Shown: positions 37,357 through 54,967, numbered from the stretch's first letter. The stretch: DNA of 64,000 bases from a candidate division WOR-3 bacterium (GCA_023131835.1 JAGLZA010000024.1:2377-66376); one strand, 5' to 3'. Numbers and translations are program-made. Notes: generated by a model from the sequence alone, not told the origin.

Positions 37357-37720
37357 ATGATAGATCCAAAAATAGCATTTGACCAAGCCAAATTATGGGC
37401 TGAAAACAAAACTGCACAGGCAATGCCGGGTGGTGGTGTATTAACTGCTGGGGTTGTGATAATTGCGTTACTCATCGTAATTTTTGCCTTAACGGACAAA
37501 GATGGTGAAAGGTTTCGTAGGTATCATGATTCTGAACAGTACGCAGCAAGCAACTCAATTAGCCAATACCTCTCAACTCTACCCATCGATGCAAAATTTA
37601 GTCAACGTTACGGGTACAGTATTCTCGATGTATGGAGTTCTAATAATTGTGTTAATTGCGGCAGTAATTATAGGACTTTTGCTTTCGAGTTTCCTTGGTG
37701 GCGGCAGAATAGAAGAGTAA
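37357..37720 (+). pseudogene. Frameshifted copy of the small membrane glycoprotein gene at 37797..38141.
   Basis: Track ORF 37357..37830 (frame A) matches the N-terminus of the paralog 37797..38141 (AMPGG). Track ORF 37502..37720 (frame B) matches the rest (GIMIL...LNVTGT.FS.YGVLIIV...SSFLGGGR(I)EE). Joining them needs a shift near 37480-37510. Confidence 0.5.
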
Positions 37721-37796
37721 AACCAACAATTACAAGTGACACACCAGTGAAACCAGGGGGGGGTCTAACCCCTCTACCATTTTTTGGAAAACAAAA

Positions 37797-38141
37797 ATGT
37801 TTGAAAACACAAAACTTGCATGGAAAATAAGTAAAGAAAAAGCAGAAAAGTTCTTAGTAAACAGATGCGGACAGGCGATGCCAGGTGGCAACTTAATGCC
37901 AGTAGCCATATCACTCATATCGATGCTAATAATCGGCTACATAGGTATTATGATACTACAAAGCACAACGGAGAGTACAGCATTGGTATCTGGTGATAAG
38001 CTATACAGTGCACAACAGAACTTGTTAAACGTAACAGGGACAACCTTCTCATTGTACGGCGTACTAATAATAGTATTTGTCGCAACAGTAATAATCGCAC
38101 TATTGATGAGTAGCTTCTTAGGTGGAGGTAGAGAAGAATGA
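37797..38141 (+). CDS. Small two-TM membrane glycoprotein (114 aa).
   Basis: Two TM helices flank a loop with NxT sequons. C-terminal GGGREE. ATGA overlap with the next gene. Confidence 0.55.
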   Translation: MFENTKLAWKISKEKAEKFLVNRCGQAMPGGNLMPVAISLISMLIIGYIGIMILQSTTESTALVSGDKLYSAQQNLLNVTGTTFSLYGVLIIVFVATVIIALLMSSFLGGGREE

Positions 38142-38890
38142 AGAAACAAGTGATTCTGGGTTTGGTAGTAATGATTTCGTTGCTGGTGTTAGTTAGTTCA
38201 GCACAAGCACATAACATTACATTAAACGAACCTGAAACAGGTGACGAACTTACCGGCAACTACACTCTCAATGCAACAACCACAATAAACTTTCTCAACG
38301 TAAACTTCTCGTATTCAACAGACAACTCAACGTGGTTCGATATTGGAACTAACAACACAATGGGAACAGAATTTACATACGAATGGAACACAACTGAATT
38401 ATGTAATGGTAATTACACTGTAAACGCTACAACCGAATGGAATAGCAGCGTTGTTGCCCATATGGCTTATGCAAACATCACAATAAACAACAACGCAATT
38501 ACGTTAGTCACACCAGCAGCGGGAGCAACAATTAGTGGTAATTACACATTCAAAGCAACAACACTCGCAACACGTGCATATGTAAACTTCTCATGGTCAA
38601 ATGATAGCGGTGGTAATTGGACAGAATTTGGCTCCAATGATACAGCAGGAACAGAGTTTACATTAGTCTGGAATACTGCAAATGTTAGTGACGGAACCTA
38701 CTACTTTAATGCTACGAGTAACTGTACCATTAACGATAACAAAACAGAAACAGACGAAAACCAAGGTATTGTAATTAGAAACGCAGTAGCAGCAGTAGTG
38801 GATTCACCTGAGTTCAGTACAATAATGATGGCTTGTCTAATCGGACTACTAAGTATATCAGCGATACTACTAAGAAAAAAGAAAGAATAA
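38138..38890 (+). CDS. Secreted N-glycosylated protein with a PEF-CTERM-like sorting signal, a probable archaeosortase substrate.
   Basis: Signal peptide MKKQVILGLVVMISLLVLVSSAQA. A repeated NYT(L/V)NATT Ig-like module. C-terminus ...DSPEFSTIMMACLIGLLSISAILLRKKKE, which is a PEF tripeptide, then a TM helix, then a basic tail. Confidence 0.7.
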   Translation: MKKQVILGLVVMISLLVLVSSAQAHNITLNEPETGDELTGNYTLNATTTINFLNVNFSYSTDNSTWFDIGTNNTMGTEFTYEWNTTELCNGNYTVNATTEWNSSVVAHMAYANITINNNAITLVTPAAGATISGNYTFKATTLATRAYVNFSWSNDSGGNWTEFGSNDTAGTEFTLVWNTANVSDGTYYFNATSNCTINDNKTETDENQGIVIRNAVAAVVDSPEFSTIMMACLIGLLSISAILLRKKKE

Positions 38891-38895
38891 AGTTT

Positions 38896-38935
38896 GGGAG
38901 GGAGCTTTTTATTTCCCTCTCTTTTTTATTTTTTA
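38896..38935 (+). terminator. Hairpin plus T-tract terminator after the PEF-CTERM gene.
   Basis: GGGAGGGA, an 8-nt loop, then TCCCTCTC with one G:U pair, followed by TTTTTTATTTTTTAT. Confidence 0.45.
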
Positions 38936-38956
38936 TGTAATATTAGGAGGTAAAAA

Positions 38957-39160
38957 ATGATAAAAGAAAAATGGGTAAGTAGTGCAAAAAGAGGACAAAA
39001 AGATTATAGAATATATAAAATATACCGATCTGGTAAAAAATCCCTTGTTTACCAAACTAATAGTTTAGCAAAAGCAAGAGACGAAAAAGATGAATTTTTT
39101 AGGAGAGGAAAAGGTGGAACTACTGTTATATTAGTTAATAAAGAAGGTTATCCTCTTTAA
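38957..39160 (+). CDS. Small basic protein (67 aa).
   Basis: ATTAGGAGGTAAAAAATG RBS. ORF from the track. Confidence 0.5.
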   Translation: MIKEKWVSSAKRGQKDYRIYKIYRSGKKSLVYQTNSLAKARDEKDEFFRRGKGGTTVILVNKEGYPL

Positions 39161-39230
39161 ACATAAAAAATTGAATCACACATAAAAGATATAAGAATAA
39201 ATTCTTATCTCTTTATCTCTTTTTTATATT

Positions 39231-40154
39231 ATGAAAGAATCTTTGAAATTATTTTTTAGCTTTATAGCTTTTTGCTTAGGTCTGAACTTTGTCTATTTCG
39301 GACTACTAAGCAAACTATTTGATTTAAGAGTTGTAGTAGCCAATCTAGTAGCTAAAACCCTACACACTTTTTTATGGTGGAATACAAGTGTTGACGGTTT
39401 CACAATCTTATTAAACAGCAAGAGTGTTATTAACGTAATTAACGAATGCACTGGAATCTTTTCGATGACCATCTTTGCATCCATTGTGCTCGCTTATGAT
39501 ACCACTTTAAGGAATAAGGTCTGGGGGTTGATAATTGGAGTTCCTACATTATTTTGTCTGGCTATTCTACGGTTGTCATTGACAACTCTGCTTGTGGTTA
39601 AATATCCTACAATGTTACATCTATCGCACGATTATTTGTTTCAGATTTTTTTGCTGATCTTTGTAATAGTGCTTTTTGTGCTTTGGCACGACATAGTAGT
39701 AGAAAAAAAGAGCAGCATAAGAAAATACACAATACTATTTGCGGAATTTATTGTTCTAACTACAGCATTGTTTCTAATATGGACTCAGATTGCAACACAC
39801 TATGCATATCTTGTTTTAACAACTACCATAATACTTCTTAATAATGTCACATTAAACTATAGTGAACCACAACTGTTTTTATTAGGTATGGTAACTTGTA
39901 TACCATCGTTTTTAGCCTTAGTTGCAATAACACCAGAAATAAGATGGAAAAGAAAGTTAGGATTTATAGGGATTGGATTAGGATTGATTTTTGCATTTAG
40001 AGTTTTTTTAGAATTATTGTATGTTTTTTATGAATGTAATCAGAGTGTATTAATGGACTTTATGGTGAGTTTTATATCTGGACCGATAAGAATTGCTCTG
40101 CCTTTAGTTATTTGGATGGGTTTTGTATACTATTCAAAAAACACAAAACTATAA
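39231..40154 (+). CDS. Archaeosortase/exosortase-family polytopic membrane protein (307 aa).
   Basis: About eight TM helices. NECTGIFSM matches the exosortase (EpsH) active-site Cys motif xCSGxxS. A later LAILRLSL matches the conserved Arg motif. It sits next to a PEF-CTERM-tailed protein. Confidence 0.55.
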   Translation: MKESLKLFFSFIAFCLGLNFVYFGLLSKLFDLRVVVANLVAKTLHTFLWWNTSVDGFTILLNSKSVINVINECTGIFSMTIFASIVLAYDTTLRNKVWGLIIGVPTLFCLAILRLSLTTLLVVKYPTMLHLSHDYLFQIFLLIFVIVLFVLWHDIVVEKKSSIRKYTILFAEFIVLTTALFLIWTQIATHYAYLVLTTTIILLNNVTLNYSEPQLFLLGMVTCIPSFLALVAITPEIRWKRKLGFIGIGLGLIFAFRVFLELLYVFYECNQSVLMDFMVSFISGPIRIALPLVIWMGFVYYSKNTKL

Positions 40155-41815: not shown

Positions 41816-42874
41816 TCAAAAACGCATAGGACATTTAATACAAGCCTCTGGTGGATTCTTTGTATTCATTCTTCTTCTCCATTCTACAAACTCCTTACTA
41901 TTCCAAATCCCCTCTAAAGATTGCTCAAATATGTTTCCCATAAAAATATTATGAACACCACAACATGGACGTACATCTCCTTTAGTGGTAATAGGTAGCA
42001 TATACCACGGTTGGTAACAAACTATTTTGTTACTCGGTAGTTCTAACGGAGGTAAACGTACATCTATGTTCAACTCTTTCCCAAGCTCTTTTGCCTCTCT
42101 GAAAATATCTTTAATTTCCTTTTTATCCTTTGTTTTTCTTATGGCATAGTTTTCTGCACTTTCTTTTCCAACCCAATAACTAACATCCGAAAACGCTATT
42201 CCATCCACACCCACTTCTTTAGCTAAACTAACTAAAGCTAGAACTTCATGTAAATTCTTACCTACCATTATTACAGGAACAAACTCAATCTTCAAATTGA
42301 CTCTTTCTTCTTTTCTCTTTTTACAAAGGTTCTTTATACCTTTAATTGTTTTCTCGAAATTAGCACCCACACGTATACCTTCATAGGTCTCTTTTGTTGC
42401 AGCATCAATAGATAGTGATAAATAATCCAAACCAGAATTTATTAATTCATTAACATTTTTGTTGTTAAATAGAGTCCCATTTGAAGTAAGTAAAACTTCT
42501 AGACCTTTTTCCTTGCTGTACTTTATTGCATCAAAAATATGTTTGTATAAAAGAGGCTCACCTAATCCTCCAGCTAATTGTATTGTAGTAGCATACTCAG
42601 ATACTTTGTCAATAATGTTTCTTACCTGTTTAAAATTAAGTTCATTTAATTCTATTGTCGGATCGGTAGTTCTTAAACACATAATGCATTTAAGGTTGCA
42701 ATTATCCGTTAGTGCTAGATCTATAAATCGAGGATATGATTTGAGTTTTGGTTTTTTGAAAAAAATCTCCACATCATTTAAAATATAGTTGCTAAATCTC
42801 TTTCCTCCATATTTTAACAGAATTTTTGGATATATAATCCAAATTCGGTTAAATACTTCCCAAATAGTTTTCAT
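41816..42874 (-). CDS. Radical SAM enzyme with a C-terminal SPASM/twitch-like Cys-rich domain.
   Basis: LTDNCNLKCIMC is the CxxxCxxC motif. The C-terminus has extra Cys residues: CYQPWY...RPCCGVHN...CIKCP. Confidence 0.7.
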   Translation of the reverse strand: MKTIWEVFNRIWIIYPKILLKYGGKRFSNYILNDVEIFFKKPKLKSYPRFIDLALTDNCNLKCIMCLRTTDPTIELNELNFKQVRNIIDKVSEYATTIQLAGGLGEPLLYKHIFDAIKYSKEKGLEVLLTSNGTLFNNKNVNELINSGLDYLSLSIDAATKETYEGIRVGANFEKTIKGIKNLCKKRKEERVNLKIEFVPVIMVGKNLHEVLALVSLAKEVGVDGIAFSDVSYWVGKESAENYAIRKTKDKKEIKDIFREAKELGKELNIDVRLPPLELPSNKIVCYQPWYMLPITTKGDVRPCCGVHNIFMGNIFEQSLEGIWNSKEFVEWRRRMNTKNPPEACIKCPMRF

Positions 42875-42877
42875 TTT

Positions 42878-43894
42878 TTATCTTCCTTTTATATTACTTA
42901 CTTTTTTAACAAGGACAAATTGACGAATACCACACCATTTAATTACTGGTAGATTAGAAGCTAATAACCTATCTGTTAATTCTAAACACTTACCAAACAT
43001 CTTATATGACGAATCCACACCCATTTTTTCTAAAAAAGAAAAGAAACGCCAAACTAACTTTGGAGAAGAACCATAGTACCATAACCTACTCTCATGCCGT
43101 TCTACTGAAAAACCAGTCTTTACAAGCCATCGTCTTAAAATACTAGGTTGTAAAGCAGGATGCCACTTAAGAGCTTCCTTCCAATATCTATGAGCGTTTA
43201 CTTCTTTATACCAAATAAAAGGTTTAACTAACACAGAAAATAAATTTGCAGGATAAAAATATATTGATACACACGGAGTTGATAACGAAAGATGTCCACC
43301 ATCCTTAAGAATCCTATTTATCTCTCGTAAATATCCGAAAGGGTCATCCAAATGTTCCAGTACCTCACTACTCAAAACAATATCAACTGAACCATCATGA
43401 AATGGAGTATCCTTTATCCCGTGGTGTACCAAAACTAAACGGAACTTTCTTTTAAAGTTTTGTTGGGCAATTACTAAGGATTCTTTGCTTAAATCTAATC
43501 CATAATAAGTATTGATTGTATCTGGGAATGAATTAATATAAGGAAGCTGTCCACATCCTAAATCAACAATAGTTGAATTTGAAATGTATGGAGAAAGGAG
43601 TTTTGTATGAAAATTAGGAAAATTAACACTATGTAACCTCGCTAAATATTCAACATTACTCTGTATGTATGAATTATAATATTTACGTTCATCCCTTAGC
43701 TTATATAAATCAAGAAGATTATCCCCTATTCTAAGATCAATCTCCTTATTTTTTTCTTCCATCAAAACTATACTATCCTCAATTGGATATGTTTGCATAC
43801 AATAATTACAGACAAATCCATCAGGTTGTTGAATCAGAATATTTCCACATCGTTTACAACACAATGCTATATTAAGGTTATTCATGTTTTTCAC
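42878..43894 (-). CDS. Class I SAM-dependent methyltransferase with an N-terminal Trm112-like zinc ribbon.
   Basis: CCKRCGN...CNYC. Motif I VDLGCGQLPY. DIVLSSEVLEHL. Confidence 0.65.
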   Translation of the reverse strand: MKNMNNLNIALCCKRCGNILIQQPDGFVCNYCMQTYPIEDSIVLMEEKNKEIDLRIGDNLLDLYKLRDERKYYNSYIQSNVEYLARLHSVNFPNFHTKLLSPYISNSTIVDLGCGQLPYINSFPDTINTYYGLDLSKESLVIAQQNFKRKFRLVLVHHGIKDTPFHDGSVDIVLSSEVLEHLDDPFGYLREINRILKDGGHLSLSTPCVSIYFYPANLFSVLVKPFIWYKEVNAHRYWKEALKWHPALQPSILRRWLVKTGFSVERHESRLWYYGSSPKLVWRFFSFLEKMGVDSSYKMFGKCLELTDRLLASNLPVIKWCGIRQFVLVKKVSNIKGR

Positions 43895-44637
43895 TTTTTC
43901 CTACAAACAAAATAATATCCTCCAACTTGAGACTTAAAAAGACAAGCTAAATAATTCATCACCTTAAATCCAATATTAAAACTGGAAAAAAATGTGTTCA
44001 TTATTGTAAGTGGAAAGAAAAACCCATCATACATTACTTTTTCCATCTGAAAACCACTTTTTCTTATTTTCTCTCTAATAATATCTTCCTTATAAAAATT
44101 AACGTGGTCAGTTATTTTTTGTATATATGGTTGAAATAGTCTATTCCGACATTGAGCCATAAAACATCCTTCATTTGGCACACCTAAGATTAGTATCCCT
44201 CTATTTCTTATACTGTTATAAAGATTATCTAAAACCTTATCATCCTCTTCTATATGCTCTAACACCTGACTACATAACACTATATCAAATTTATCTTTTA
44301 TATATAAGTTAGTTAAATCTCCCTTAAATATTTTTGCCTGTGGATACTCCATCTTTGCCCTTTCAACTCGTACAGGATTATAATCTACACCATAAATCTC
44401 CAATCCTTTTAATTTAGATAAGATATTTAGGTGAACACCATCACCACAACCAGCATCCAAAATTTTTAGCTGAATATCCTTTTTTTGACAAGTCTCTATA
44501 ACTGAAATAATAAAATCCCATCTTTTTTTAATGCTACGTTTGGTAGACTTATCAAATATCTGTTTCATCTGAGGGCTTACATACCATGAATTACCATTAT
44601 CTATCTTTTCTTTAATACCTTTTTTTATGTTAGTCAT
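43891..44637 (-). CDS. Class I SAM-dependent methyltransferase.
   Basis: LDAGCGDGVH. DIVLCSQVLEHIEE. Confidence 0.65.
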   Translation of the reverse strand: MTNIKKGIKEKIDNGNSWYVSPQMKQIFDKSTKRSIKKRWDFIISVIETCQKKDIQLKILDAGCGDGVHLNILSKLKGLEIYGVDYNPVRVERAKMEYPQAKIFKGDLTNLYIKDKFDIVLCSQVLEHIEEDDKVLDNLYNSIRNRGILILGVPNEGCFMAQCRNRLFQPYIQKITDHVNFYKEDIIREKIRKSGFQMEKVMYDGFFFPLTIMNTFFSSFNIGFKVMNYLACLFKSQVGGYYFVCRKK

Positions 44638-45850
44638 GTGTTAGTCCTATTATCAACCTATACAACTTCTCCTCTTTAATAAATATATTCTTCTCATCAT
44701 ATTTAAAACTTCTTTCTACGGACACCTTTGACATTTCTTTTATTTCCTTGTTCGAAAAACTTAGAAGTTTTTCGATACCTTTTTTAATACTATCAACACT
44801 ATATGGATCAACTATGATACCATTTTTTTTGTCAACAAATTGGGTAGGAACAGGATGATTCGATGTTAATATTGGCAATCCTGAAGCCATAGCCTCAACA
44901 AAAACCATACCAAAACCCTCATATAGTGTAGGAAATACAAAGAGATCAGAAATACTATAATAAAGGGGCAAATCTTTATATCCTACAATCCCAGTGAATA
45001 TTACGTGTTTTGATATTCCAAGCATATCAACATAGTTTTTATATCTTAATTTTTCTTCTTTCTTTCTAGTACCTCCAACCACAATTAGGATAGTACTAGC
45101 TTTTATTGATTCTGATAAACCAGCATAAGCTTTAAGTAACCTACCTAAATTTTTCTGTTTATCCCCATATCTACCCACAAATAAAAATACTCGTTTTCCA
45201 CTTATATTAAGTTTATTCTTTAACTTCTCAACCCTCTCTTGTTTAACATTCATATATTGCCTTAAATTTACAGGTTTTGGAACCGATACAATATTAGTAG
45301 ATTTTGCACCGTGTCTACGTGCATAATACTTCAAATAATCACTGATAGCAATTACCTTTAAAGCCTGTTGAATATTATAAGTCTCAATTATGTGTTTCTC
45401 AAGATACACTGCATAATTTGAATGTAATTTGTATCTTCTATCGTAATCATCATGTATAGATTGCACCACTGGAATACCTGTTATTTTCCCTAAAACAGTC
45501 CCTAAAAGTCCTATCTCATGCACATTGGAGTTTCTAATAATAGAAATATTAAATTTTTTAATGATACTTAATCCCACTCTTAAACCTAAAAATGGTTTTA
45601 AAAATAGGTTTTTTGTCCTTATAGGATGGAACATTAATGTGTTATGGTTTTTTAATACTGAATCCTCATCTCCCCACAATGATATAAGATGAACACAGCC
45701 AAACATTCTGTTAGGGTTGTATACCTTCTCTAGATAGTCAAGAGAATACCGCTTTATTCCTTTAGTAGTTTCTTTTATAGGATCATTTATGTAGCATAGT
45801 AATTGGTTATTACTTTTTGTCATTTTTTGGTTCTTCCTAATTTTTCCCAT
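44630..45850 (-). CDS. GT4-family (GT-B) glycosyltransferase.
   Basis: C-terminal EX7E motif EGFGMVFVEAMASGLPIL. Confidence 0.7.
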   Translation of the reverse strand: MGKIRKNQKMTKSNNQLLCYINDPIKETTKGIKRYSLDYLEKVYNPNRMFGCVHLISLWGDEDSVLKNHNTLMFHPIRTKNLFLKPFLGLRVGLSIIKKFNISIIRNSNVHEIGLLGTVLGKITGIPVVQSIHDDYDRRYKLHSNYAVYLEKHIIETYNIQQALKVIAISDYLKYYARRHGAKSTNIVSVPKPVNLRQYMNVKQERVEKLKNKLNISGKRVFLFVGRYGDKQKNLGRLLKAYAGLSESIKASTILIVVGGTRKKEEKLRYKNYVDMLGISKHVIFTGIVGYKDLPLYYSISDLFVFPTLYEGFGMVFVEAMASGLPILTSNHPVPTQFVDKKNGIIVDPYSVDSIKKGIEKLLSFSNKEIKEMSKVSVERSFKYDEKNIFIKEEKLYRLIIGLTHD

Positions 45851-47097
45851 AACCTTAACTTTTCTTGATAGATATTATTTGGACTATGCTGAAAGATAGC
45901 AAACTCCCTACCTTTAGTACCTAATTCTTTTGCAATTTCTGGATTTTCTAAAAGAAAAATAGCCTCATCTGCTAATTGTTCTATGTCCCTAAAATCAACT
46001 AGTAAGCCTGTAACCATGTGTTTAATAACTTCAGGTTGCCAATCACAATCGTATGCAACTACAGGAGTTCCTGAAAGACATGCCTCAACCAATGAATTTC
46101 CTGTTAACGGAGAAAGGACAATATCTGCAGTATAATAAAGATTCCTCAGAAATGCTTGATCTCTAAAACCAAGAATTTTAACTCTACCATCTAATCTATG
46201 ATCCTTCATAAATAACTCCATATCCTTTTGCAATTCGCCTTCACCTGCTATAATAAGATATGTTTGGTTTATCTTTCTTTTTATTATATCAAATGCCTTT
46301 ATCACATCCAGTGAGAATTTTTCAGGTGATAATCGTGACACATAAATTATAATCTTTGAATCTTGAGAAATATCTAGCTCCTCTCTAATATCTTTCCTAC
46401 CATCCAAACTATATTGAACATTATCCACTGCACCTCTCACAATATAACAATTCCCTATAGATGCACCATTTTTTATTGCATATGCTTTAGGATCTTCATC
46501 TGTCCAAATCATATCCACTCTTTTGAATACAAAACGTTCCATTAGCTTCTCTATAAATCTTGGTAATCCTGTTGTTGTCCATTTAGCGTATTTATAAATA
46601 TAATCGTAACTATTCCACATATGTAACATAAATGGTCTATTTGTTAATTTACTCAAAAAATATGCCGTTATACCACTGATATGTGGGTCACCAGCCTCGA
46701 TAAACGTAATATTTTCTGTTTTTATTAACCTCTTTAATTCAAATAATATCTTGACATACTGTATAATTTTCAAAGGGTTTAACATATGTAAATATTTCAA
46801 AAACCTTTCTATGGTACTTAACTTACTAAATTGAGTTGAACCAATAATATCGATCCAACCTGTGAAAATAATAGCAACATCATCAAAATCCACAATCTTA
46901 TGACTTTTACTAAAAAAGAAAGAGGTATAAACTTTTTTGAAATAGCCATCCATTCTTTGTTGTCTTAGACCTGATACAATGGCTCTTATAATTCTTTCAT
47001 TATCTCCACCGTAGTAATTAGGTGAAAGAGCTGGTCCAGAAGATATTATTAGTAACTTCTTATCTTTAGATGAATTTTTCTCTGTGTTAAACATCAT
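45820..47097 (-). CDS. GT1/GT4-like (GT-B) glycosyltransferase.
   Basis: C-terminal SPLTGNSLVEACLSGTPVVAYD. Domain organisation as in GT-B enzymes. Confidence 0.55.
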   Translation of the reverse strand: MMFNTEKNSSKDKKLLIISSGPALSPNYYGGDNERIIRAIVSGLRQQRMDGYFKKVYTSFFFSKSHKIVDFDDVAIIFTGWIDIIGSTQFSKLSTIERFLKYLHMLNPLKIIQYVKILFELKRLIKTENITFIEAGDPHISGITAYFLSKLTNRPFMLHMWNSYDYIYKYAKWTTTGLPRFIEKLMERFVFKRVDMIWTDEDPKAYAIKNGASIGNCYIVRGAVDNVQYSLDGRKDIREELDISQDSKIIIYVSRLSPEKFSLDVIKAFDIIKRKINQTYLIIAGEGELQKDMELFMKDHRLDGRVKILGFRDQAFLRNLYYTADIVLSPLTGNSLVEACLSGTPVVAYDCDWQPEVIKHMVTGLLVDFRDIEQLADEAIFLLENPEIAKELGTKGREFAIFQHSPNNIYQEKLRLWEKLGRTKK

Positions 47098-48266
47098 TTT
47101 AATACCTCAAAATATCTATTACAATAACTTCTAATTGTATAATATTTTTCATAAGCTTCTTTTACCTTCAAACTATAGTCTTCTTTTTTAAAATTTACTA
47201 ATAAATTTTTAAGCTCTATATCATTATTATAAACCAAACTCTTATTGATATTATTAGCTATCTCAGATAATCCCCCTACATTAGATACAACAATAGGTAT
47301 TCCTACTGATAAAGATTCCAACGCTACTATAGGAGCATTCTCTGCACCAGAAGAAGGGATGATAAGTGCTGATGCATCTTTATATAATGAATATAACGAA
47401 TTACGATCTGACCATCCTATGTATTTTATATATCTATCTAAATTATTTGAACTAATAAATCGTTTTATGTGGGTTTCCAAACTACCGCCACCCGCAATAA
47501 TCAATTTTATACCTATTTCTTTATGATATTTATTAAAAAACTCCAATAAATCTAGTATGCCTTTATGCCTTTCTAACACCCCAGCATATAAAAAATATTT
47601 GGAGTATTTAGAGTCTTCTATGTTTTGAGGTGGATCTGGAGCAAAATTTGGTATAACAGTTATTGGTGTTTTTATTCTTCCTTGAATTAAAATATTTTTA
47701 ACAAATACACTCGGAGCTATGATCGTTTTAATATCTTTTAAGCTCCTATCTAATAAACCCGTATATCTCCATATCTGTGGTACTTTTTTCGATTTTAGCA
47801 TACACAAAAGGCAGTTCTTATCAAATTGACATCCAATGGTTAGCGTCCCTCGTGGACAAACCAACCAATTAGTGTGTTCTGTATATACTTTTATTCCATC
47901 ACCGAGTTCCATAACTTTCTGACCCAAAAACGAAATATTATGATAGTGTATAACATCAAAATTCTCCCTCATTATTTCTTGTAGTTTGCTTTTAAAAAAT
48001 GGTATACCTGTTACAAAAGATGAGATAGGAGATATAGCTCCTACAGAACTCTTTATTGCATGCACATGGACATTTTCATTATTGGGATAATCTTCATTTG
48101 GTTCTTCCTTTCGTTTTAGGTAATAAGAATCTATACAGTGTACTGTGTGAACTTCGTGACCCATTTTTGCTAACTCATTTGCAAGGAAGTAAACTTGAAC
48201 ATCTGCACCTCCATAATGATAAGGAGGGTAGAATGAGTTTACCATCAAGAATTTTAAGGTCTCCAT
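47094..48266 (-). CDS. GT4-family glycosyltransferase.
   Basis: ENAPIVALESLSVGIPIV, the EX7E motif. Confidence 0.7.
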   Translation of the reverse strand: METLKFLMVNSFYPPYHYGGADVQVYFLANELAKMGHEVHTVHCIDSYYLKRKEEPNEDYPNNENVHVHAIKSSVGAISPISSFVTGIPFFKSKLQEIMRENFDVIHYHNISFLGQKVMELGDGIKVYTEHTNWLVCPRGTLTIGCQFDKNCLLCMLKSKKVPQIWRYTGLLDRSLKDIKTIIAPSVFVKNILIQGRIKTPITVIPNFAPDPPQNIEDSKYSKYFLYAGVLERHKGILDLLEFFNKYHKEIGIKLIIAGGGSLETHIKRFISSNNLDRYIKYIGWSDRNSLYSLYKDASALIIPSSGAENAPIVALESLSVGIPIVVSNVGGLSEIANNINKSLVYNNDIELKNLLVNFKKEDYSLKVKEAYEKYYTIRSYCNRYFEVLK

Positions 48267-48268
48267 TG

Positions 48269-49684
48269 TTAAATTTCTTTCTCCATTCCCTTAACTAACC
48301 TTCTAAGAACTTTAAACGCATAGTCAAATCCCAATCTGAGGTCGTTTGGGTTTTTCATTGCATACCAAATATTCGATAACCACCATCCTGGACTTAGGTA
48401 GACATCTCTATATATCTCCTTTCTGTATTCGTTAATTTCATCAATAGACAATTCACATAAGCTTACAGGTGTTTCATAAAGTAATAAATCCTCAAACTTC
48501 AATTCTCCTATCTTACCTTGTTTTACTGCATCCTTATATAACTTACATCTTGGATAAGGCACTAAACTATTAACCTGAAAACCTGTTGGTCTCATCTCCT
48601 TTATGAAATCTTTTGTCTTTTTTATTGTTACTTTTGTCTCTCCTGGTAATCCAACTATGAATGATGCATATTGCTTAATCCCCACTTCTTTTAGGTTTCG
48701 TAATGCTACCTTAGCATCTAAAACATTTATCCTCTTATTGATTAAATCCAAAACTTCTTGTGAACCCGACTCTACTCCTATAGATACACCTCTACACCCT
48801 GCTTCCTTCATTAACTCTGCTTGTTTTTTTGTTATATCTGCCCTAACATTAGCAAACCACTCTATCCTTAAATCTCTTCCTATTATCTCCTCACAAATAT
48901 CAATAACCCTCTTCCTATTTATATTAAAAGTCGCATCAAAGAAGTTTATGTATTTTACACCCCTTCCTTGAAGATACTCTATTTCATCTGCTACTTTTTC
49001 TACATCCCTAAAAATAGGTTTCAAATCAGCTATTGTGCAAAAACTACATCCCATTCCGCATCCTTTCATTGATTCAACAAATACACAAGGACGAATAGAT
49101 GGTACTTGTACCCAATAAACACTAAAATTAGGAATAAGATTCCATGCAGGCGTAGGTAACGAGCTGAAATCAAACCTTTTGTAATTAGGTGAATTTACTA
49201 TTATACCTTTATTATCTCTATATGCTATTCCATTAATATCTCCTAAATTAGTATTATTCACTAACTCTAAAATTGATATTTCATAATCATAATCAGTTAT
49301 GTAGACATCCACATTTATAGCTCTTTCTAAAGTTTCTATAGGTATTGTTGTAAGCGAATAACATATCATTACTGTCTGTATCTTCTTACTTATACCCTTA
49401 ACTATATCTCCAACCTTAATATCTGAATAGAACGTTTCTGGAGTACTTTTAAATATTACAATATCTGGTTTTCCTTTTTCTATCTCTTTCTTTATGTATC
49501 CGAAATCAAAATCGTATCCATTTGCATCTATTAATTCTACGTTATGGTTCTTTTTTAATAACAAACCCGCTAAATACACAAATCCATGTGGAGTAATTAC
49601 ATTGGGAATTGTATTTTCACACCTGTCCTCTCTTCCAACTGGTACGTCATTAAACCTTGGTGGATTAATAAGTATGATTTTCAT
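48269..49684 (-). CDS. B12-binding radical SAM enzyme (class B).
   Basis: N-terminal Rossmann-like B12-binding domain. CGMGCSFC is the CxxxCxxC motif. Confidence 0.7.
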   Translation of the reverse strand: MKIILINPPRFNDVPVGREDRCENTIPNVITPHGFVYLAGLLLKKNHNVELIDANGYDFDFGYIKKEIEKGKPDIVIFKSTPETFYSDIKVGDIVKGISKKIQTVMICYSLTTIPIETLERAINVDVYITDYDYEISILELVNNTNLGDINGIAYRDNKGIIVNSPNYKRFDFSSLPTPAWNLIPNFSVYWVQVPSIRPCVFVESMKGCGMGCSFCTIADLKPIFRDVEKVADEIEYLQGRGVKYINFFDATFNINRKRVIDICEEIIGRDLRIEWFANVRADITKKQAELMKEAGCRGVSIGVESGSQEVLDLINKRINVLDAKVALRNLKEVGIKQYASFIVGLPGETKVTIKKTKDFIKEMRPTGFQVNSLVPYPRCKLYKDAVKQGKIGELKFEDLLLYETPVSLCELSIDEINEYRKEIYRDVYLSPGWWLSNIWYAMKNPNDLRLGFDYAFKVLRRLVKGMEKEI

Positions 49685-50871
49685 AAGCTATCACCAACTC
49701 TTTCATACAAACTAACAATTTTTTTAATATTCTCTTTCCACGAAAAGTTCTCTACTACCACATCTCTTCCCTTTTTACCCATCTCTACAAACTTTTTATA
49801 ATCATTTAGCACCATATTTATTGCAAATGACAAACCATACATATTGATATTGTTTACATTTAAAAGAATCCCATTATTTCTATCCTTTAAAACTTCAGAT
49901 ACACCACCTACATTAGTTGCTATAGAAGGCACTTCACATGCCATTGCTTCCAATAAACTCGTTGGAAAATTCTCGTGAAACGAAGGTAACACAAAAACAT
50001 CCGAAATACTATAATACTCTACAAGTCTATTATAATCTACATGTCCTAAGAACTCATAGTTCCATATTGGTATCTCAAACTTGTCAATTAAGTTCTCAAA
50101 ATATGATTGGTTACCTCGTCCCGCAAATAAAAATAATACATCTTCATGGTTTTTTATTATTTCCTTCATCGATTTAATTAATATACCTACACCTTTGAGA
50201 CCTATGAGCCTCCCACAATAAAATATTACTTCTCTATCTTTATATACTCGTGAATTAATAAACTCAAATTTCTTTCTCTTGTAAAAGAAATCCGTATCAA
50301 CTGAATTGTGAATAACTTCTACACCATTTAAACTATATTCCTTTTCAAGATAATTTTTCATCCAATTTGAAACAGTAATATACTTCCTTTCTCTTGAAAA
50401 ATAAAAATCCTCTGCTAATCTCAAAAAAGGATATAATAGATAGGTCATCCTTTCTGAGAACTCTGCATTCCTGAAAGAAGTTGCCATTTTTGTACCGCTT
50501 CTTTGTAACTTAATTGTTGAATGAACTGTAGTTACAGTAGGTATATCTAACTTTTTAAGACTTAGTAGAAGATCAGGCATATGTGCTGTATGAGAATGAA
50601 TTACATCAACTCCTTCTTCTTTTAGTAATTGTGGTATTTCTTTCAGACAATAATACTGAAATTTTAAATTATATATAAAAGTATCTCCTGCCTTAATCGT
50701 TTTTATGACTTTCATATTGTTATGGAGATACTTAGTTTCAACATCTCCTCTATCTGGAGTTACAACAATTAACTCAAAATCCTCAGGTAAATGTTTTACT
50801 AGTTCGACAATATAAGTTCCAACACCACCCCAGTTTGGTATGAACTCGGGTGCAAGCATACATATCTTCAT
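49681..50871 (-). CDS. GT4-family glycosyltransferase.
   Basis: ENFPTSLLEAMACEVPSI, the EX7E motif. Confidence 0.7.
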   Translation of the reverse strand: MKICMLAPEFIPNWGGVGTYIVELVKHLPEDFELIVVTPDRGDVETKYLHNNMKVIKTIKAGDTFIYNLKFQYYCLKEIPQLLKEEGVDVIHSHTAHMPDLLLSLKKLDIPTVTTVHSTIKLQRSGTKMATSFRNAEFSERMTYLLYPFLRLAEDFYFSRERKYITVSNWMKNYLEKEYSLNGVEVIHNSVDTDFFYKRKKFEFINSRVYKDREVIFYCGRLIGLKGVGILIKSMKEIIKNHEDVLFLFAGRGNQSYFENLIDKFEIPIWNYEFLGHVDYNRLVEYYSISDVFVLPSFHENFPTSLLEAMACEVPSIATNVGGVSEVLKDRNNGILLNVNNINMYGLSFAINMVLNDYKKFVEMGKKGRDVVVENFSWKENIKKIVSLYERVGDSL

Positions 50872-50891
50872 TTTTCTTTTTCCTCCTTATT

Positions 50892-52445: not shown

Positions 52446-52462
52446 TTTCTATACTTTTCCAC

Positions 52463-53989: not shown

Positions 53990-53998
53990 TTTTACTAC

Positions 53999-54967
53999 CT
54001 ATTTTAATTTTGCATAACTTGCAGGTGATATAAAAAACCCTACCCACCCATAGTCATTATCACTATCATAAGTAATACATCGTGCATTAGCTGCACCTGG
54101 AAACTCAGTATTAATCATCGTACCATTATTTGTATATGTTGTTGTAATCACTCCTGTAGGGGTTGTATCAAAAGTGCACCAAATTCTGTTATTACTATCA
54201 CCACCTAAATCATAAATATTATTGTAATCAAAAGTTACGAATGTAGAATAAGTATTATCTGAAGTATCGTATTTTACAAGCTTTGCTGGAGAAGTCCACG
54301 ATGAAATCCATAGATAAGTTCCGTCCCAATAAGATTCACTAGGATTAAAATTTAGATTGTAAACTACATACGAATTATTATTCACATTAAACTTCGCAAG
54401 GAAGCCGTTAGGCGGGTTGTTTCCCGTTATCCAAATCCATTCACCATCAAATTGAGCAGAGCACGCATCATGATGCCCTAAGATTGTATACTCAGTATAT
54501 GAACCATCATTAGGATCCATCTTAGTAATTTTTGTAGTAGTAGCATCATGCATAATCCATAAATAATCATTTGCATAACACATCCTTGCAGGACTTGGTG
54601 ATCCAAGTGAAAATGTTGTATAAGTACCGTCGGTCGCATTCATCTTCATTATCTTGTGTGGAAACGTATACAAACCCGAGAAGATGGACCCGTTACCTGC
54701 ACACATATCAACTGGTAATCCATCACCAGCACCAAGAATGTAAATAGTATACCCTGCTGGATTTGTTGGATCAAATTTTACAATTTTTCCAGGGTTTGTA
54801 TACAAAGATCCCCAAATATAAGAATTATTATAGCACATCATTTGGCTTTTATCTTCACCTGTAGAAAGATTGTACATGGTATAACCACCATTAAGAATCG
54901 TTAAAAAAATTACTAATAGTATAATAACCACCACCAATCCTATTAATAATCTAAATTTTTTTTTCAT
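53999..54967 (-). CDS. Secreted/anchored beta-rich repeat protein (322 aa).
   Basis: N-terminal TM/signal segment LLIGLVVVIILLVIFL. Repeated Y/W-rich, beta-propeller-like segments. Confidence 0.45.
   Translation of the reverse strand: MKKKFRLLIGLVVVIILLVIFLTILNGGYTMYNLSTGEDKSQMMCYNNSYIWGSLYTNPGKIVKFDPTNPAGYTIYILGAGDGLPVDMCAGNGSIFSGLYTFPHKIMKMNATDGTYTTFSLGSPSPARMCYANDYLWIMHDATTTKITKMDPNDGSYTEYTILGHHDACSAQFDGEWIWITGNNPPNGFLAKFNVNNNSYVVYNLNFNPSESYWDGTYLWISSWTSPAKLVKYDTSDNTYSTFVTFDYNNIYDLGGDSNNRIWCTFDTTPTGVITTTYTNNGTMINTEFPGAANARCITYDSDNDYGWVGFFISPASYAKLK

What the first reader, a model, noticed from the sequence alone, without database searches (positions are those of the whole stretch)
38138..40154. 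Archaeosortase-family protein adjacent to a PEF-CTERM-tailed secreted glycoprotein
The 250-aa secreted protein ends in ..SPEF, then a TM helix, then RKKKE. The 307-aa polytopic membrane protein two genes downstream has the exosortase/archaeosortase Cys motif (ECTGIFSM) and a conserved Arg motif. The pair looks like a complete sorting system with its substrate. It sits on the only plus-strand island of the window. It is evidence for an archaeal host.
Basis: partly seen in the sequence, partly recalled or inferred. Interest (0 to 1): 0.6.

Follow-up and report, generated by a model that had tools for sequence, protein, structure and literature searches.

The report
Unannotated archaeosortase with its own PEF-tailed substrate
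A membrane enzyme of the exosortase/archaeosortase family sits beside a heavily glycosylated secreted protein carrying a matching C-terminal sorting tag, forming a compact surface-anchoring cassette of a previously undescribed subtype on a large, unclassified, probably archaeal genetic element.

Summary
Two labels need correcting.

**Sortase (39231-40154, 307 aa).** It passes the exosortase/archaeosortase signature HMM (46.9 bits, cutoff 23). It keeps the family's invariant Cys73, Arg114 and His133, predicted to lie at the outer membrane face. It fails every curated subfamily model and gives no ArtC hit. Its nearest relatives are XrtH/ArtB-like. Its C-terminal half looks like a degenerate, Cys-less copy of the catalytic half.

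**Substrate (38138-38890, 250 aa).** It has a Sec signal peptide, two Ig-like repeats, 20 N-glycosylation sequons and a DSPEF + TM helix + RKKKE tail.
- The tail is invariant in all 15 homologs and is more conserved than any part of the protein body.
- It still fails the PEF-CTERM and PEFG-CTERM models.
- A PEF-tailed gene lies directly upstream of the sortase in all six loci examined.
- One locus has a second, unrelated PEF-tailed protein beside the sortase.

**Context.** A large N-glycan gene cluster follows, and an AglB closest to ANME-1 (Methanophagales) lies just beyond the window. The element is at least ~180-200 kb, low in GC, coded almost entirely on one strand and rich in ORFans. Public records call both genes "hypothetical" and assign the contig to a WOR-3 bacterium.

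**Verdict.** This is a new variant of a known kind, of moderate interest.

The parts
38138..38890 (+). Substrate: a 250-aa secreted N-glycoprotein. It comprises a signal peptide (aa 1-24, 38138-38209), Ig-like repeat 1 (aa 25-118), Ig-like repeat 2 (aa 119-216) and a sorting tail (aa 221-250, 38798-38887).
   Evidence: ORF. Pfam Big_7 hit at 27.4 bits. The two repeats are 47% identical, E = 3e-18, and there are 20 sequons against 7.1 +/- 2.2 expected. All 15 homologs carry the tail. NCBI record MCK4526036.1 is annotated 'hypothetical protein'.
38798..38887 (+). Tripartite C-terminal sorting signal: V-D-S-P-E-F-S (PEF codons at 38807-38815), a hydrophobic helix IMMACLIGLLSISAILL, and the basic tail RKKKE.
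   Evidence: D222, P224, E225, F226, L234-L238, A242, L244, K248 and K249 are invariant in 15 sequences. Tail identity is 81% against 60% for the body, and 0 of 178 body windows match it. It is below the cutoff on every curated CTERM model.
39231..40154 (+). Sortase: a 307-aa, 8-TM protein of the exosortase/archaeosortase family. The catalytic N-half is aa 1-160 (39231-39710) and the degenerate duplicate C-half is aa 161-307 (39711-40151).
   Evidence: TIGR04178 scores 46.9 against a cutoff of 23, and all subfamily models are below cutoff. AF2 model has pLDDT 87.9. hhalign of N-half against C-half gives E = 1.5e-10 over 112 columns, with controls. Topology. The NCBI gene call MCK4526038.1 has 229 aa; aligning it against the 307-aa ORF places its start at Met79, after the catalytic Cys.
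39447..39449 (+). Codon of Cys73, the proposed nucleophile, in the motif N-E-C-T-G.
   Evidence: Invariant in 13/13 close members, in 52/52 full-length relatives and in 142/143 distant relatives. It sits at the outer end of TM2.
39570..39572 (+). Codon of Arg114, the catalytic Arg.
   Evidence: Conserved in 143/143 distant relatives. It lies 41 residues after the Cys, as in ArtA C173/R214.
39627..39629 (+). Codon of His133, the family-invariant His.
   Evidence: Conserved in 143/143 distant relatives and invariant in A2. It sits at the outer end of TM4. H153 is conserved only within the close clade.
37797..38141 (+). A 114-aa two-TM protein whose stop overlaps the substrate's ATG by 4 bp (ATGA). 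It is a conserved partner of unknown role.
   Evidence: The same 4-bp overlap and gene order occur in L001, L003, L005 and L015. It has no family hits.
37357..37830 (+). A degenerate tandem paralog of the 114-aa gene, split over two reading frames. The N-part begins at 37357 and the C-part is the 72-aa ORF at 37502-37720.
   Evidence: BLASTP gives 35% identity for the N-part (E = 7e-07) and 62% for the C-part (E = 1e-22).
38896..38928 (+). A conserved GC-rich hairpin (GGGAGGGAG...TTCCCTCTC) followed by a T-run, directly after the substrate's stop codon. It looks like a terminator.
   Evidence: dG is -14.9 kcal/mol and z = -3.05, matched by 1 of 200 shuffles. It is present in 5/5 loci but shows no compensatory changes.
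38932..38939 (+). A TATA-like box (TTTATGTA), conserved in relatives about 20-25 bp upstream of the sortase ATG. In the window it now precedes the inserted 67-aa ORF.
   Evidence: Alignment A4. Its function is inferred. The window-wide test of TATA position was uninformative.
38957..39160 (+). A 67-aa basic ORF with an AGGAGGT ribosome-binding site, carried on a ~276-bp insertion found only in the window, between the promoter-like box and the sortase start.
   Evidence: The insertion is absent from L001, L002, L003 and L005. The only family hit is a weak PadR match, E = 0.027.
41816..63994 (-). Context: a glycan-biosynthesis cluster that probably supplies the N-glycan for the substrate. It holds four GT4 glycosyltransferases, a Wzx-type flippase, five radical-SAM enzymes (one with a SPASM domain, two with B12-binding domains), methyltransferases, two epimerases/dehydratases, a DegT aminotransferase and a FemAB-like protein.
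   Evidence: Pfam results. On the 180-kb contig it continues into more sugar genes and an AglB oligosaccharyltransferase. The functional link to the substrate is inferred.

Best explanation
The two genes form a dedicated archaeosortase-type sorting cassette. The proposed steps below are all inferred; what is actually shown is listed afterwards.

**Proposed mechanism (inferred)**
1. The 250-aa protein is exported through Sec and its signal peptide is removed after SSAQA.
2. Its two Ig-like domains are heavily N-glycosylated by the element's own AglB, using glycans made by the adjacent gene cluster.
3. The protein is held in the membrane by its C-terminal helix. The RKKKE tail stays in the cytoplasm and the D-S-P-E-F motif sits just outside the membrane.
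4. The 8-TM enzyme has Cys73, Arg114 and His133 at the outer ends of TM2, TM3 and TM4. It recognises the PEF motif and Cys73 attacks the peptide bond at or near it.
5. The helix and basic tail are removed. By analogy with Haloferax ArtA, the new C-terminus is most likely passed to a membrane lipid, giving a lipid-anchored surface glycoprotein. Hydrolytic release is the alternative outcome.
6. The C-terminal half of the enzyme is a Cys-less copy of the catalytic half. It probably acts as a scaffold or as a substrate- or lipid-binding module.
7. A hairpin with a T-run after the substrate gene, plus a separate promoter-like box before the sortase gene, would allow high substrate and low enzyme expression.

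**Context**
The cassette lies on an element of at least ~180-200 kb. The element has low GC, is coded almost entirely on one strand and is rich in ORFans. Its host is most likely an archaeon related to ANME-1 (Methanophagales).

**Shown here**
- family membership of the enzyme
- the conserved catalytic residues
- conservation of the tail
- conserved gene linkage
- the sequon excess

Cleavage, the attachment chemistry, the role of the second half of the enzyme and the type of replicon are inferred.
For: **Family**
- TIGR04178 scores 46.9 bits against a cutoff of 23, with the match spanning residues 68-154.
- An exhaustive profile search finds 1305 relatives. Those sampled all pass TIGR04178, and several pass the XrtH model.

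**Catalytic residues**
- C73 is conserved in 142/143, R114 in 143/143 and H133 in 143/143 distant relatives.
- All three are invariant in a 52-sequence full-length alignment.
- The C-R spacing of 41 equals that of ArtA's essential C173/R214.

**Topology**
- There are 8 TM segments. Inside loops carry 14 K+R and outside loops 4.
- All four sequons fall in predicted outside loops, and N51 is kept in 13/13 members.
- The triad lies at the outer membrane face. The AF2 model has pLDDT 87.9.

**Substrate**
- It has a signal peptide, two Ig-like repeats and 20 sequons.
- The tail is invariant in 15/15 homologs and is the most conserved segment.

**Linkage**
- A PEF-tailed gene lies immediately upstream of the sortase in the window and in L001, L002, L003, L005 and L015.
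- L015 has two tandem PEF-tailed paralogs.
- L002 has an unrelated LamG-type secreted protein ending SAPEF + TM + KKRDR directly beside the sortase.
- The sortase family (13 members) and the substrate family (14 members) share the same narrow distribution.

**Analogy**
- A distant two-domain relative (P0017) has a nearby protein ending IPAITNWG + TM + RRR. Its best match is 'midcut-by-XrtH'.

**Glycosylation context**
- A glycan cluster and an AglB are nearby.
- Secreted proteins have 3-8 sequons per 100 aa, against 0.3-0.5 in cytoplasmic enzymes.
Against: - There is no biochemical evidence.
- The enzyme fails every curated subfamily model. The best scores are ArtB 64 against 150, XrtX 53.6 against 170, ArtE 42 against 95 and ArtA 34 against 75.
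- Pfam, whose Exosortase_EpsH model does hit the relative P0017, returns nothing for the window protein at E <= 1.
- The Asn three residues before the catalytic Arg is present in 136/143 relatives but is Ala111 throughout this clade. Activity could therefore be altered.
- The tail is below cutoff on PEF-CTERM, PEFG-CTERM, Loki-CTERM and PGF-CTERM.
- The internal-duplication signal is partly driven by one helix motif. Block-shuffled controls still reach E = 1e-5 to 1e-8.
- No solved structure exists to compare the fold.
- The hairpin shows no covariation.
- The replicon type and the host are not established. About 110 kb of the 180-kb contig was not seen, and the public bin label is bacterial (WOR-3).
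Confidence: 0.8

Rival explanations
1. The tail is only a permanent C-terminal membrane anchor. The 307-aa protein is a divergent sortase-family member that is catalytically altered, or that works on something else, for example in glycan or exopolysaccharide assembly, the kind of locus for which (from my own knowledge) exosortase EpsH was first named. On this view the adjacency reflects a shared cell-surface theme and not an enzyme-substrate relationship.
For: - The gene lies next to a 22-kb glycan cluster.
- The near-universal Asn before the catalytic Arg is replaced by Ala in the whole clade.
- The enzyme fails all subfamily HMMs and Pfam finds nothing.
- The tail fails all curated sorting-signal models.
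Against: - A plain TM anchor has no reason to keep D-x-P-E-F invariant in 15/15 sequences while the body drops to 53% identity.
- An unrelated protein beside the sortase in L002 carries the same PEF + TM + basic tail.
- Cys, Arg and His are all retained.
- The gene to the right of the sortase varies: radical SAM in L001 and L005, a LamG protein in L002, a 460-aa glycoprotein in the window. The PEF-tailed gene to the left is constant.
Confidence: 0.1
2. The PEF tail is processed by a different enzyme, and the element's sortase targets other proteins, possibly host ones. Candidates are a host archaeosortase of ArtC type or the element's own CPBP/Rce1-like intramembrane protease.
For: - A CPBP/Rce1-like protease gene lies near AglB on the same element (L011 9212-9682). 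Its best NCBIfam matches include MrtJ, the JDVT-CTERM system protease, at 29.6 bits against a cutoff of 75.
- PEF-type signals are classically paired with ArtC (PMC5244752).
- About 110 kb of the element was not examined.
Against: - The PEF-tailed gene and this sortase are strictly adjacent in six loci, and their distributions match.
- A 2017 survey reported that ANME-1 genomes lack ArtA, ArtC and PEF-CTERM proteins (PMC5244752). If the host is ANME-1-like, it would have no ArtC to do the job.
- The CPBP gene is more than 25 kb away and below its model cutoff.
Confidence: 0.07
3. A rival reading of the context. The window is not part of a mobile or viral element. It is a hypervariable, low-GC cell-surface and glycosylation island in the chromosome of an uncultivated archaeon. 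A bacterial (WOR-3) origin, as the public bin label says, is much less likely.
For: - Archaeal chromosomes are known to carry variable cell-wall islands. The title and abstract of PMC4535781 (listed, not read in full) describe a cell-wall associated genomic island of Haloquadratum walsbyi with several versions.
- No capsid, terminase, portal or replication hallmark was found.
- IMG/VR and the phage and plasmid collections hold no relatives.
- The NCBI bin label is WOR-3.
Against: - About 95 kb were examined without a single tRNA or housekeeping gene.
- More than 100 genes lie on one strand, with a monotonic cumulative GC skew.
- There is a run of about 36 tiny ORFans.
- At least six NUMOD3/HNH endonuclease-like paralogs lie within 37 kb.
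- A perfect in-frame tandem repeat is present.
- The family is absent from 185,579 GTDB species representatives.
- Against a bacterial origin: the AglB's nearest named relatives are all archaeal, at 51-53% identity to Methanophagales.
Confidence: 0.35

Closest known systems
Archaeosortase A (ArtA) / PGF-CTERM system of Haloferax volcanii, the only experimentally characterised archaeosortase
   Same: - It is a polytopic membrane Cys enzyme of the same superfamily.
- Its essential Cys and Arg are 41 residues apart (C173/R214 in ArtA, C73/R114 here).
- Its substrates are Sec-exported, N-glycosylated surface proteins with a tripartite signal of motif, TM helix and basic tail.
- It is genomically and functionally linked to AglB-type N-glycosylation. 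The element's AglB is named 'archaeosortase A system-associated'.
   Different: - The ArtA model scores 34 bits against a cutoff of 75, and only over residues 62-115.
- The motif here is PEF, not PGF.
- The catalytic core is at the N-terminus and is followed by a pseudo-duplicate half.
- According to the review read, ArtA is implicated in growth, cell shape, motility and conjugation and has at least two known substrates (SLG and HVO_0405). Here one or two substrates are encoded next to the enzyme.
- ArtA's third essential residue is Arg253. Here the family-invariant third residue is His133.
Archaeosortase C (ArtC) / PEF-CTERM, and ArtF / PEFG-CTERM
   Same: The sorting motif contains P-E-F immediately before the TM helix. 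The tails align end to end with the PEF-CTERM model (positions 2-25 of 25) and with PEFG-CTERM (positions 3-27 of 30).
   Different: - Tail scores are 6.8-14.7 bits (cutoff 23) and 15.4 bits (cutoff 25).
- The enzyme gives no ArtC or ArtF hit at E <= 1.
- The PEF motif therefore appears to be paired with a different branch of the enzyme superfamily.
Exosortase H (XrtH) and archaeosortase B (ArtB): the short-core branch of the superfamily
   Same: - These are the best-scoring curated models for the window protein and its relatives.
- Several distant relatives pass the XrtH cutoff (P0019, P0022, P0045, P0083, P0121).
- Some relatives share the same two-half architecture (P0019 at 357 aa, P0022 at 325 aa).
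- A two-domain relative has a nearby XrtH-type ('midcut-by-XrtH'-like) tail.
   Different: - The window protein scores 39.8 against 86 on XrtH and 64 against 150 on ArtB.
- Relatives outside the close clade reach at best E = 2.7e-29 against the family profile, and full-length relatives are only 20-29% identical.
- From my own knowledge, the cognate signals of those families are IPTLxxWG-CTERM and VPXXXP-CTERM, not PEF.
- The conserved Asn before the catalytic Arg is Ala here.
Sortase A / LPXTG (Gram-positive bacteria): an analogous, non-homologous system
   Same: - Cys/Arg/His chemistry.
- A C-terminal signal of motif, TM helix and basic tail. The tails even give weak LPXTG_anchor hits of 13.7-17.4 bits.
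- Dedicated sortase-substrate gene pairs are common.
   Different: The fold is unrelated: a single-pass beta-barrel enzyme against an 8-TM helical enzyme. Its attachment target is peptidoglycan.

Membership tests
Exosortase/archaeosortase superfamily (NCBIfam TIGR04178 signature) | Scores above the curated cutoff of the signature HMM | tested here: met
   46.9 bits against a cutoff of 23. Residues 68-154 align to model positions 2-93 of 97.
Exosortase/archaeosortase superfamily (NCBIfam TIGR04178 signature) | Invariant Cys, Arg and His on three consecutive TM helices | tested here: met
   C73 is conserved in 142/143, R114 in 143/143 and H133 in 143/143 distant relatives. All three are invariant in A1 and A2. 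The C-R spacing of 41 matches ArtA's C173/R214.
Exosortase/archaeosortase superfamily (NCBIfam TIGR04178 signature) | Polytopic (about 8 TM) membrane protein with the active site at the extracytoplasmic face | tested here: met
   This is a prediction only. There are 8 hydrophobic segments, inside loops carry 14 K+R against 4 outside, and all sequons fall in outside loops. The AF2 model is all-helical with pLDDT 87.9.
Exosortase/archaeosortase superfamily (NCBIfam TIGR04178 signature) | Typical but not defining: an Asn three residues before the catalytic Arg (N-x-x-R), and detection by Pfam's Exosortase_EpsH model | tested here: not met
   Position 111 is Ala in all 13 clade members, against Asn in 136/143 relatives. 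Pfam returns no hit at E <= 1. Neither feature is part of the curated signature. Both are recorded as deviations.
Exosortase/archaeosortase superfamily (NCBIfam TIGR04178 signature) | Co-occurrence with proteins carrying a cognate C-terminal tripartite signal | tested here: met
   Six of six loci have a PEF-tailed gene adjacent to the sortase. L002 has a second, unrelated PEF-tailed protein.
Archaeosortase C / PEF-CTERM system | Enzyme passes the ArtC equivalog model | tested here: not met
   No ArtC hit is listed at E <= 1 for the 307-aa protein.
Archaeosortase C / PEF-CTERM system | Substrate tail passes PEF-CTERM (TIGR03024, cutoff 23) | tested here: not met
   Scores are 6.8, 13.6 and 14.7 bits for three tails, and there is no hit for the others. 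The alignment does span the whole model.
Archaeosortase A / PGF-CTERM system | Enzyme passes TIGR04125 (cutoff 75); tail passes PGF-CTERM (cutoff 24.5) | tested here: not met
   The enzyme scores 34 bits. The best tail score is 13.2 bits.
Archaeosortase B / VPXXXP-CTERM | Enzyme passes TIGR04144 (cutoff 150) | tested here: not met
   64 bits, the best of all subfamily models. The tail has no VPXXXP motif.
Exosortase H (XrtH) | Enzyme passes TIGR04177 (cutoff 86); cognate signal of XrtH type | tested here: not met
   39.8 bits. Distant relatives do pass. The C-terminal half gives no XrtH-associated membrane protein hit.
ArtF / PEFG-CTERM | Enzyme passes the ArtF model; tail passes TIGR04296 (cutoff 25) | tested here: not met
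   No ArtF hit for the window protein. The best tail score is 15.4 bits.
Any archaeosortase system | Sortase-dependent C-terminal cleavage and lipid attachment of the substrate | not testable with these tools
   This needs expression, mass spectrometry and lipid labelling.

The most novel reading that the evidence does not exclude
The cassette belongs to a virus-like or extrachromosomal element of at least ~200 kb that lives in ANME-1-related methane-cycling archaea.

The element would carry its own complete surface-display toolkit:
- an oligosaccharyltransferase (AglB)
- a glycan pathway of more than 30 kb
- a private sortase of a new subfamily
- the sortase's own PEF-tagged glycoprotein substrate or substrates

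On this reading the element, and not the host, writes part of the cell surface or of an enveloped virion. This would hold in a host lineage reported to lack ArtA and ArtC altogether. It would be the first mobile-element-encoded archaeosortase system.
Probability: 0.35. Interest if true: 0.7.

Novelty: new variant of a known kind. Interest (0 to 1): 0.5.

Why it matters
**Annotation.** Two proteins that public records call "hypothetical" now have a specific, testable function. The public gene call for the sortase starts after the catalytic Cys, which probably explains why the annotation pipeline missed it.

**Enzyme family.**
- The finding adds a distinct branch to the exosortase/archaeosortase family. 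It has a fused pseudo-duplicate domain and an Asn-to-Ala change beside the catalytic Arg.
- A PEF-type signal is here paired with a non-ArtC enzyme. This suggests that sorting motifs and enzyme lineages have been re-matched during evolution.
- New HMMs for this enzyme clade and its tail would recover members that current curated models miss.

**Experiments.** One enzyme, one small substrate and a 30-residue tag make an unusually compact pair. That makes it attractive for heterologous reconstitution of archaeosortase chemistry, which has so far been studied only in Haloferax ArtA.

**Biology.** If the replicon is a giant virus or extrachromosomal element of ANME-1-like archaea, it would show that such elements can bring their own glycosylation and anchoring machinery to remodel the surface of methane-oxidising archaea. 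This bears on host range, superinfection exclusion and consortium formation.

Tried and rejected
**Structure**
- The first AF2 run used only the 13 close homologs and was unusable (pLDDT 39.9). It was replaced by a run on a 52-sequence alignment.
- Foldseek against the PDB gave nothing (best E = 0.75). The afdb50 library was unavailable. Model coordinates could not be read, so triad distances were not measured.

**Direct alignment to ArtA**
- Haft et al. 2012 is not held in the library.
- None of 20 screened distant relatives passes the ArtA model.
- Only alignment at the HMM level and the residue spacing could be used.

**Searches for the sortase family elsewhere**
- IMG/VR, GTDB representative genomes, JGI metagenome contigs, and phage and plasmid records all gave nothing.

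**Replicon hallmarks**
- PHROGs and Pfam on about 40 ORFs found only NUMOD3/HNH, zinc-finger, Ig-like and sugar-pathway genes.
- IMG/VR scans and a phage tblastn with core proteins found nothing.
- PDB sequence searches with three large unknown proteins found nothing.
- There are no tRNAs and no Rfam families.

**Host domain from expression signals**
- Shine-Dalgarno-like motifs are enriched (24/66 genes against 9.8% background) but do not discriminate between domains.
- The TATA-position test had only 15 usable intergenic regions and was uninformative.

**Readings considered and rejected**
- H153 as the catalytic His: rejected, because it is L/I/V in other family members. H133 is the invariant one.
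- Equating the C-terminal half with the 'XrtH-associated membrane protein': not supported. The only link is a 20-bit hit in one distant homolog.

**Literature**
- No report of a virus- or element-encoded archaeosortase was found.

Full report

Yes. One search lists a 250-aa ORF at 38138-38890 (+) and a 307-aa ORF at 39231-40154 (+).

The 250-aa ORF ends ...VVDSPEFSTIMMACLIGLLSISAILLRKKKE. The 307-aa ORF contains ECTGIFSM at residues 72-79.

Between them lies a 67-aa ORF (38957-39160), so "two genes downstream" is literally right. Alignment with four related loci shows that this ORF sits on a ~276-bp insertion found only in the window. Elsewhere the two genes are about 65 bp apart.

A scan of every ORF in the window for a C-terminal hydrophobic helix plus a basic end found only this one protein with a PEF motif.

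The plus-strand island is real.
- Minus-strand ORFs tile the rest of the window.
- GC skew is clearly positive only in the 38-40 kb bin.

**2. The 307-aa membrane protein**

*Family models.*
- NCBIfam places it above the curated cutoff of the exosortase/archaeosortase signature model TIGR04178 (46.9 bits against 23).
- It falls below the cutoff of every named subfamily: ArtB 64/150, XrtX 53.6/170, ArtE 42.1/95, XrtH 39.8/86, ArtA 34/75. There is no ArtC hit.
- Pfam finds nothing.

*Homologs.*
- The word-indexed search of 5.8 billion proteins found only 13 homologs, at 65-100% identity, all unnamed.
- One is the identical NCBI protein, labelled [quoted passage not shown].
- That NCBI gene call is 229 aa. 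Against the 307-aa ORF it starts at Met79, after the catalytic Cys. The N-terminus MKESLKLF... is conserved in the homologs, so the 307-aa form is the right one.

*Distant relatives.*
- An exhaustive HMMER search with the family profile found 1305 relatives at E <= 1e-3 but only 2 at E <= 1e-30. The clade is therefore isolated.
- Aligning the 149 listed distant relatives to the profile gave C73 in 142/143, R114 in 143/143 and H133 in 143/143 sequences with a residue in those columns. W152, Q138 and E72 are also strongly conserved.
- H153 is conserved only within the close clade and is L/I/V elsewhere.
- One deviation: the Asn three residues before the Arg (136/143) is Ala111 in all 13 clade members.

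*Comparison with ArtA.*
- Site-directed mutagenesis of Haloferax ArtA showed that Cys173, Arg214 and Arg253 are critical (review PMC9263693).
- The C-R spacing of 41 residues is identical here.
- The ArtA HMM aligns across residues 62-115.
- I could not obtain a true ArtA sequence for a residue-level alignment.

*Nearest curated neighbours.* Relatives sampled from the distant set pass TIGR04178, and five pass the XrtH cutoff. ArtB is usually second.

**3. Architecture and topology of the enzyme**

The curated models cover only residues ~13-158. Distant relatives come in three forms:
- proteins of ~170 aa matching only the N-half
- proteins of ~300-390 aa matching the full length
- proteins of ~160 aa matching only the C-half

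Profile-profile comparison of the two halves gave probability 96.9%, E = 1.5e-10, over 112 colinear columns. The controls were as follows.
- Reversed profiles gave E = 0.04-0.07.
- Block-shuffled C-halves still matched locally, at E = 1e-5 to 1e-8.

The signal is therefore real but partly carried by one helix motif. I read the C-half as a probable degenerate duplicate that has lost the Cys.

An AF2 model built on 52 full-length relatives is confident (pLDDT 87.9, pTM 0.77). It shows the same helix pattern twice. No PDB entry resembles it.

Hydropathy, loop charge and sequon positions give this topology.
- There are 8 TM segments, with both the N- and C-termini in the cytoplasm.
- Inside loops carry 14 Lys/Arg and outside loops 4.
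- All four sequons fall in outside loops. N51 is kept in 13/13 members.
- C73, R114 and H133 sit at the outer ends of TM2, TM3 and TM4.

**4. The 250-aa protein**

- It has a Sec signal peptide with an A-Q-A cleavage site.
- It has two tandem Ig-like repeats: Pfam Big_7 at 27.4 bits, and 47% identity between the repeats, E = 3e-18.
- It has 20 sequons against 7.1 +/- 2.2 expected.
- Its 14 homologs have the same narrow distribution as the sortase.
- All 15 sequences keep V/M-D-S/T-P-E-F-S/T ... LIGLL ... KK.
- The tail averages 81% pairwise identity (90% for the motif) against 60% for the body. None of 178 body windows of 30 columns reaches the tail's value.

No curated sorting-signal model accepts the tail:

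| Model | Score (bits) | Cutoff |
|---|---|---|
| PEF-CTERM | 6.8-14.7 | 23 |
| PEFG-CTERM | 15.4 | 25 |
| Loki-CTERM | 11-15.2 | 19.9 |
| PGF-CTERM | 13.2 | 24.5 |

**5. Linkage between the two genes**

In the window and in L001, L002, L003, L005 and L015, the order is: small two-TM gene, PEF-tailed gene or genes, sortase. All are on a plus-strand island among minus-strand genes.
- L015 has two tandem PEF-tailed paralogs.
- In L002 an unrelated 396-aa LamG-type secreted protein lies convergent to the sortase and directly beside it. It ends SAPEFNMMGLILLISMILIVTILLKKRDR.
- The gene to the right of the sortase varies between loci, while the PEF-tailed gene to the left does not.
- Next to the distant two-domain relative P0017, a protein ends IPAITNWG + TM + RRR. 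Its best match is "midcut-by-XrtH", below cutoff. This fits the idea that this whole branch consists of sorting enzymes with substrates encoded nearby.

**6. Expression signals**

- A GC-rich hairpin with a T-run follows the substrate's stop codon in 5/5 loci (dG -14.9 kcal/mol, z = -3.05). There are no compensatory changes.
- A TATA-like box lies ~20-25 bp before the sortase ATG in the relatives.
- In the window, the inserted 67-aa ORF, which has an AGGAGGT site, now occupies that position.
- The 114-aa two-TM gene overlaps the substrate's start by 4 bp in every locus.
- A frameshifted tandem paralog of the 114-aa gene lies upstream.

**7. Context and host**

*Gene content of the window.*
- Positions 41.8-64 kb form a glycan-biosynthesis cluster.
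- Positions 1-37 kb hold giant Ig-like/CarboxypepD_reg surface proteins of 2518, 1521 and 1211 aa, at least six NUMOD3/ROS_MUCR/HNH paralogs, and many proteins with no family assignment.

*Extent of the element.*
- Identical genes occur on a 180,060-bp contig. By coordinate arithmetic, that contig begins at about window position 12.6 kb.
- Joined with the window's left part and L009, this implies an element of at least ~200 kb.
- Just beyond the window's right edge lie more sugar genes, an 803-aa AglB, a CPBP/Rce1-like protease and about 36 tightly packed small ORFans on the same strand.
- No tRNA or Rfam family was found.

*Host.*
- The closest named relatives of the AglB, at 51-53% identity, are Ca. 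Methanophaga, Ca. Methanospirareceae and an ANME-1 fosmid. Both named taxa are Methanophagales.
- Syntrophoarchaeum follows at 45% and Methanosarcinales at 38-40%.
- This supports an archaeal, ANME-1-like host and makes the WOR-3 bin label doubtful.
- A 2017 survey reported that ANME-1 genomes lack ArtA, ArtC and PEF-CTERM proteins (PMC5244752).

*Replicon type.*
- It is unresolved. No viral or plasmid hallmark was found, and there are no relatives in IMG/VR, GenBank phages, PLSDB or GTDB representatives.
- I estimate about 50% for an extrachromosomal or viral element and about 35% for a chromosomal island. The rest is unclear.

**8. Mechanism**

*Shown here.*
- family membership of the enzyme
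- the conserved Cys/Arg/His
- the predicted outward-facing active site
- a conserved PEF + TM + basic tail
- strict gene linkage
- the sequon excess

*Inferred by analogy with ArtA.*
1. Sec export and signal-peptide removal.
2. N-glycosylation by AglB.
3. Retention in the membrane by the C-terminal helix.
4. Attack by Cys73 at or near PEF.
5. Removal of the helix and basic tail.
6. Transfer of the new C-terminus to a lipid, or hydrolysis.

**9. Comparison with known systems, and novelty**

The cassette works like ArtA/PGF-CTERM and carries a PEF motif like the ArtC system. The enzyme, however, belongs to the XrtH/ArtB-like short-core branch, fails every curated subfamily model, and has a fused pseudo-duplicate half and an Asn-to-Ala change.

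I found no report of an archaeosortase encoded by a virus or extrachromosomal element.

It is a new variant of a known kind. The novelty is moderate on its own and would be higher if the element proves to be a giant virus or extrachromosomal element of ANME-1-like archaea.

Noticed in passing
window 38956-39230 (approx.), ORF 38957-39160 (+): A ~276-bp insertion found only in the window. It lies between the conserved TATA-like box and the sortase ATG and carries a 67-aa basic ORF with a strong AGGAGGT ribosome-binding site. Four related loci have a 65-bp spacer instead. It looks like a small gene that has captured the sortase promoter.
   Followed up: partly
window 37357-37830 and 37502-37720 (+): The tandem paralog of the 114-aa two-TM gene is split across two reading frames. 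The N-part is 35% identical and the C-part 62% identical (E = 1e-22). This could be a pseudogene, a sequencing error or a programmed frameshift. Related loci also have short, decayed ORFs at this position.
   Followed up: partly
window 37187-37205 / 37221-37239: A perfect palindrome with 19-bp arms (AGCCCTATAAATACTTTTA) separated by 15 bp. It lies in the divergent intergenic region between the minus-strand genes and the plus-strand island. It is unique in the window (0 of 100 shuffles give 2 matches), and only one arm-like copy is present in L001. It may be an operator or a bidirectional regulatory site.
   Followed up: partly
window 26341-26463, inside the 1211-aa ORF 26139-29774 (-): A perfect 12-bp tandem repeat of 10.2 copies (100% identity). 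It is in frame and encodes (VTPP)x10 in a proline-rich C-terminal region of a large protein that has no detectable homologs and no sequons. Perfect in-frame repeats of this kind are a reported hallmark of Borg elements (PMC9879509 abstract). No Borg relationship was tested.
   Followed up: partly
window 2262-3083, 10908-11774, 13437-14654, 25044-26114, 33117-34094, 36052-37005 (-): At least six paralogous genes combine a ROS/MucR-type zinc finger, NUMOD3 motifs and an HNH/DUF968-like C-terminus, which makes them look like homing endonucleases. They are scattered among structural and unknown genes. This density is unusual for a cellular chromosome.
   Followed up: partly
window 40384-41766 (-): A 460-aa secreted glycoprotein with 24 sequons lies convergent to the sortase, in the position that a PEF-tailed LamG protein occupies in L002. 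Near its C-terminus it has LEEF, then a TM helix, then KSGME, then a second TM helix. This could be an internal ('midcut'-type) sorting signal.
   Followed up: no
L011 9212-9682 (180-kb contig, about 9 kb beyond the window's right end): A 156-aa CPBP/Rce1-like intramembrane protease lies next to AglB. Its NCBIfam matches include MrtJ, the protease of the JDVT-CTERM sorting system (29.6 bits against a cutoff of 75). It may be a second C-terminal processing enzyme on the same element.
   Followed up: partly
L011 1-9000 (180-kb contig): About 36 tightly packed, co-directional ORFs of 30-220 aa almost all lack any Pfam hit. The only hits are an NrdD fragment and a YdjM-like protein. This architecture resembles a virus or a giant element.
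   Followed up: no
window 3092-10648 (-) and 14694-19259 (-): Two giant predicted surface proteins. The 2518-aa protein has DUF2341, Ig_Rha78A_N and CarboxypepD_reg domains and 158 sequons. The 1521-aa protein has CarboxypepD_reg domains, 47 sequons and a C-terminal TM helix followed by TTTGREKNLAS. Neither carries the PEF tail.
   Followed up: partly
NCBI records MCK4526036.1 and MCK4526038.1 (contig of 72,263 bp): The public MAG is labelled 'candidate division WOR-3 bacterium'. However, the contig's AglB, its sequon-rich secretome and its sortase cassette point to an archaeal origin, so the contig was probably mis-binned. The public gene call for the sortase is also truncated at the N-terminus by 78 residues.
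   Followed up: partly
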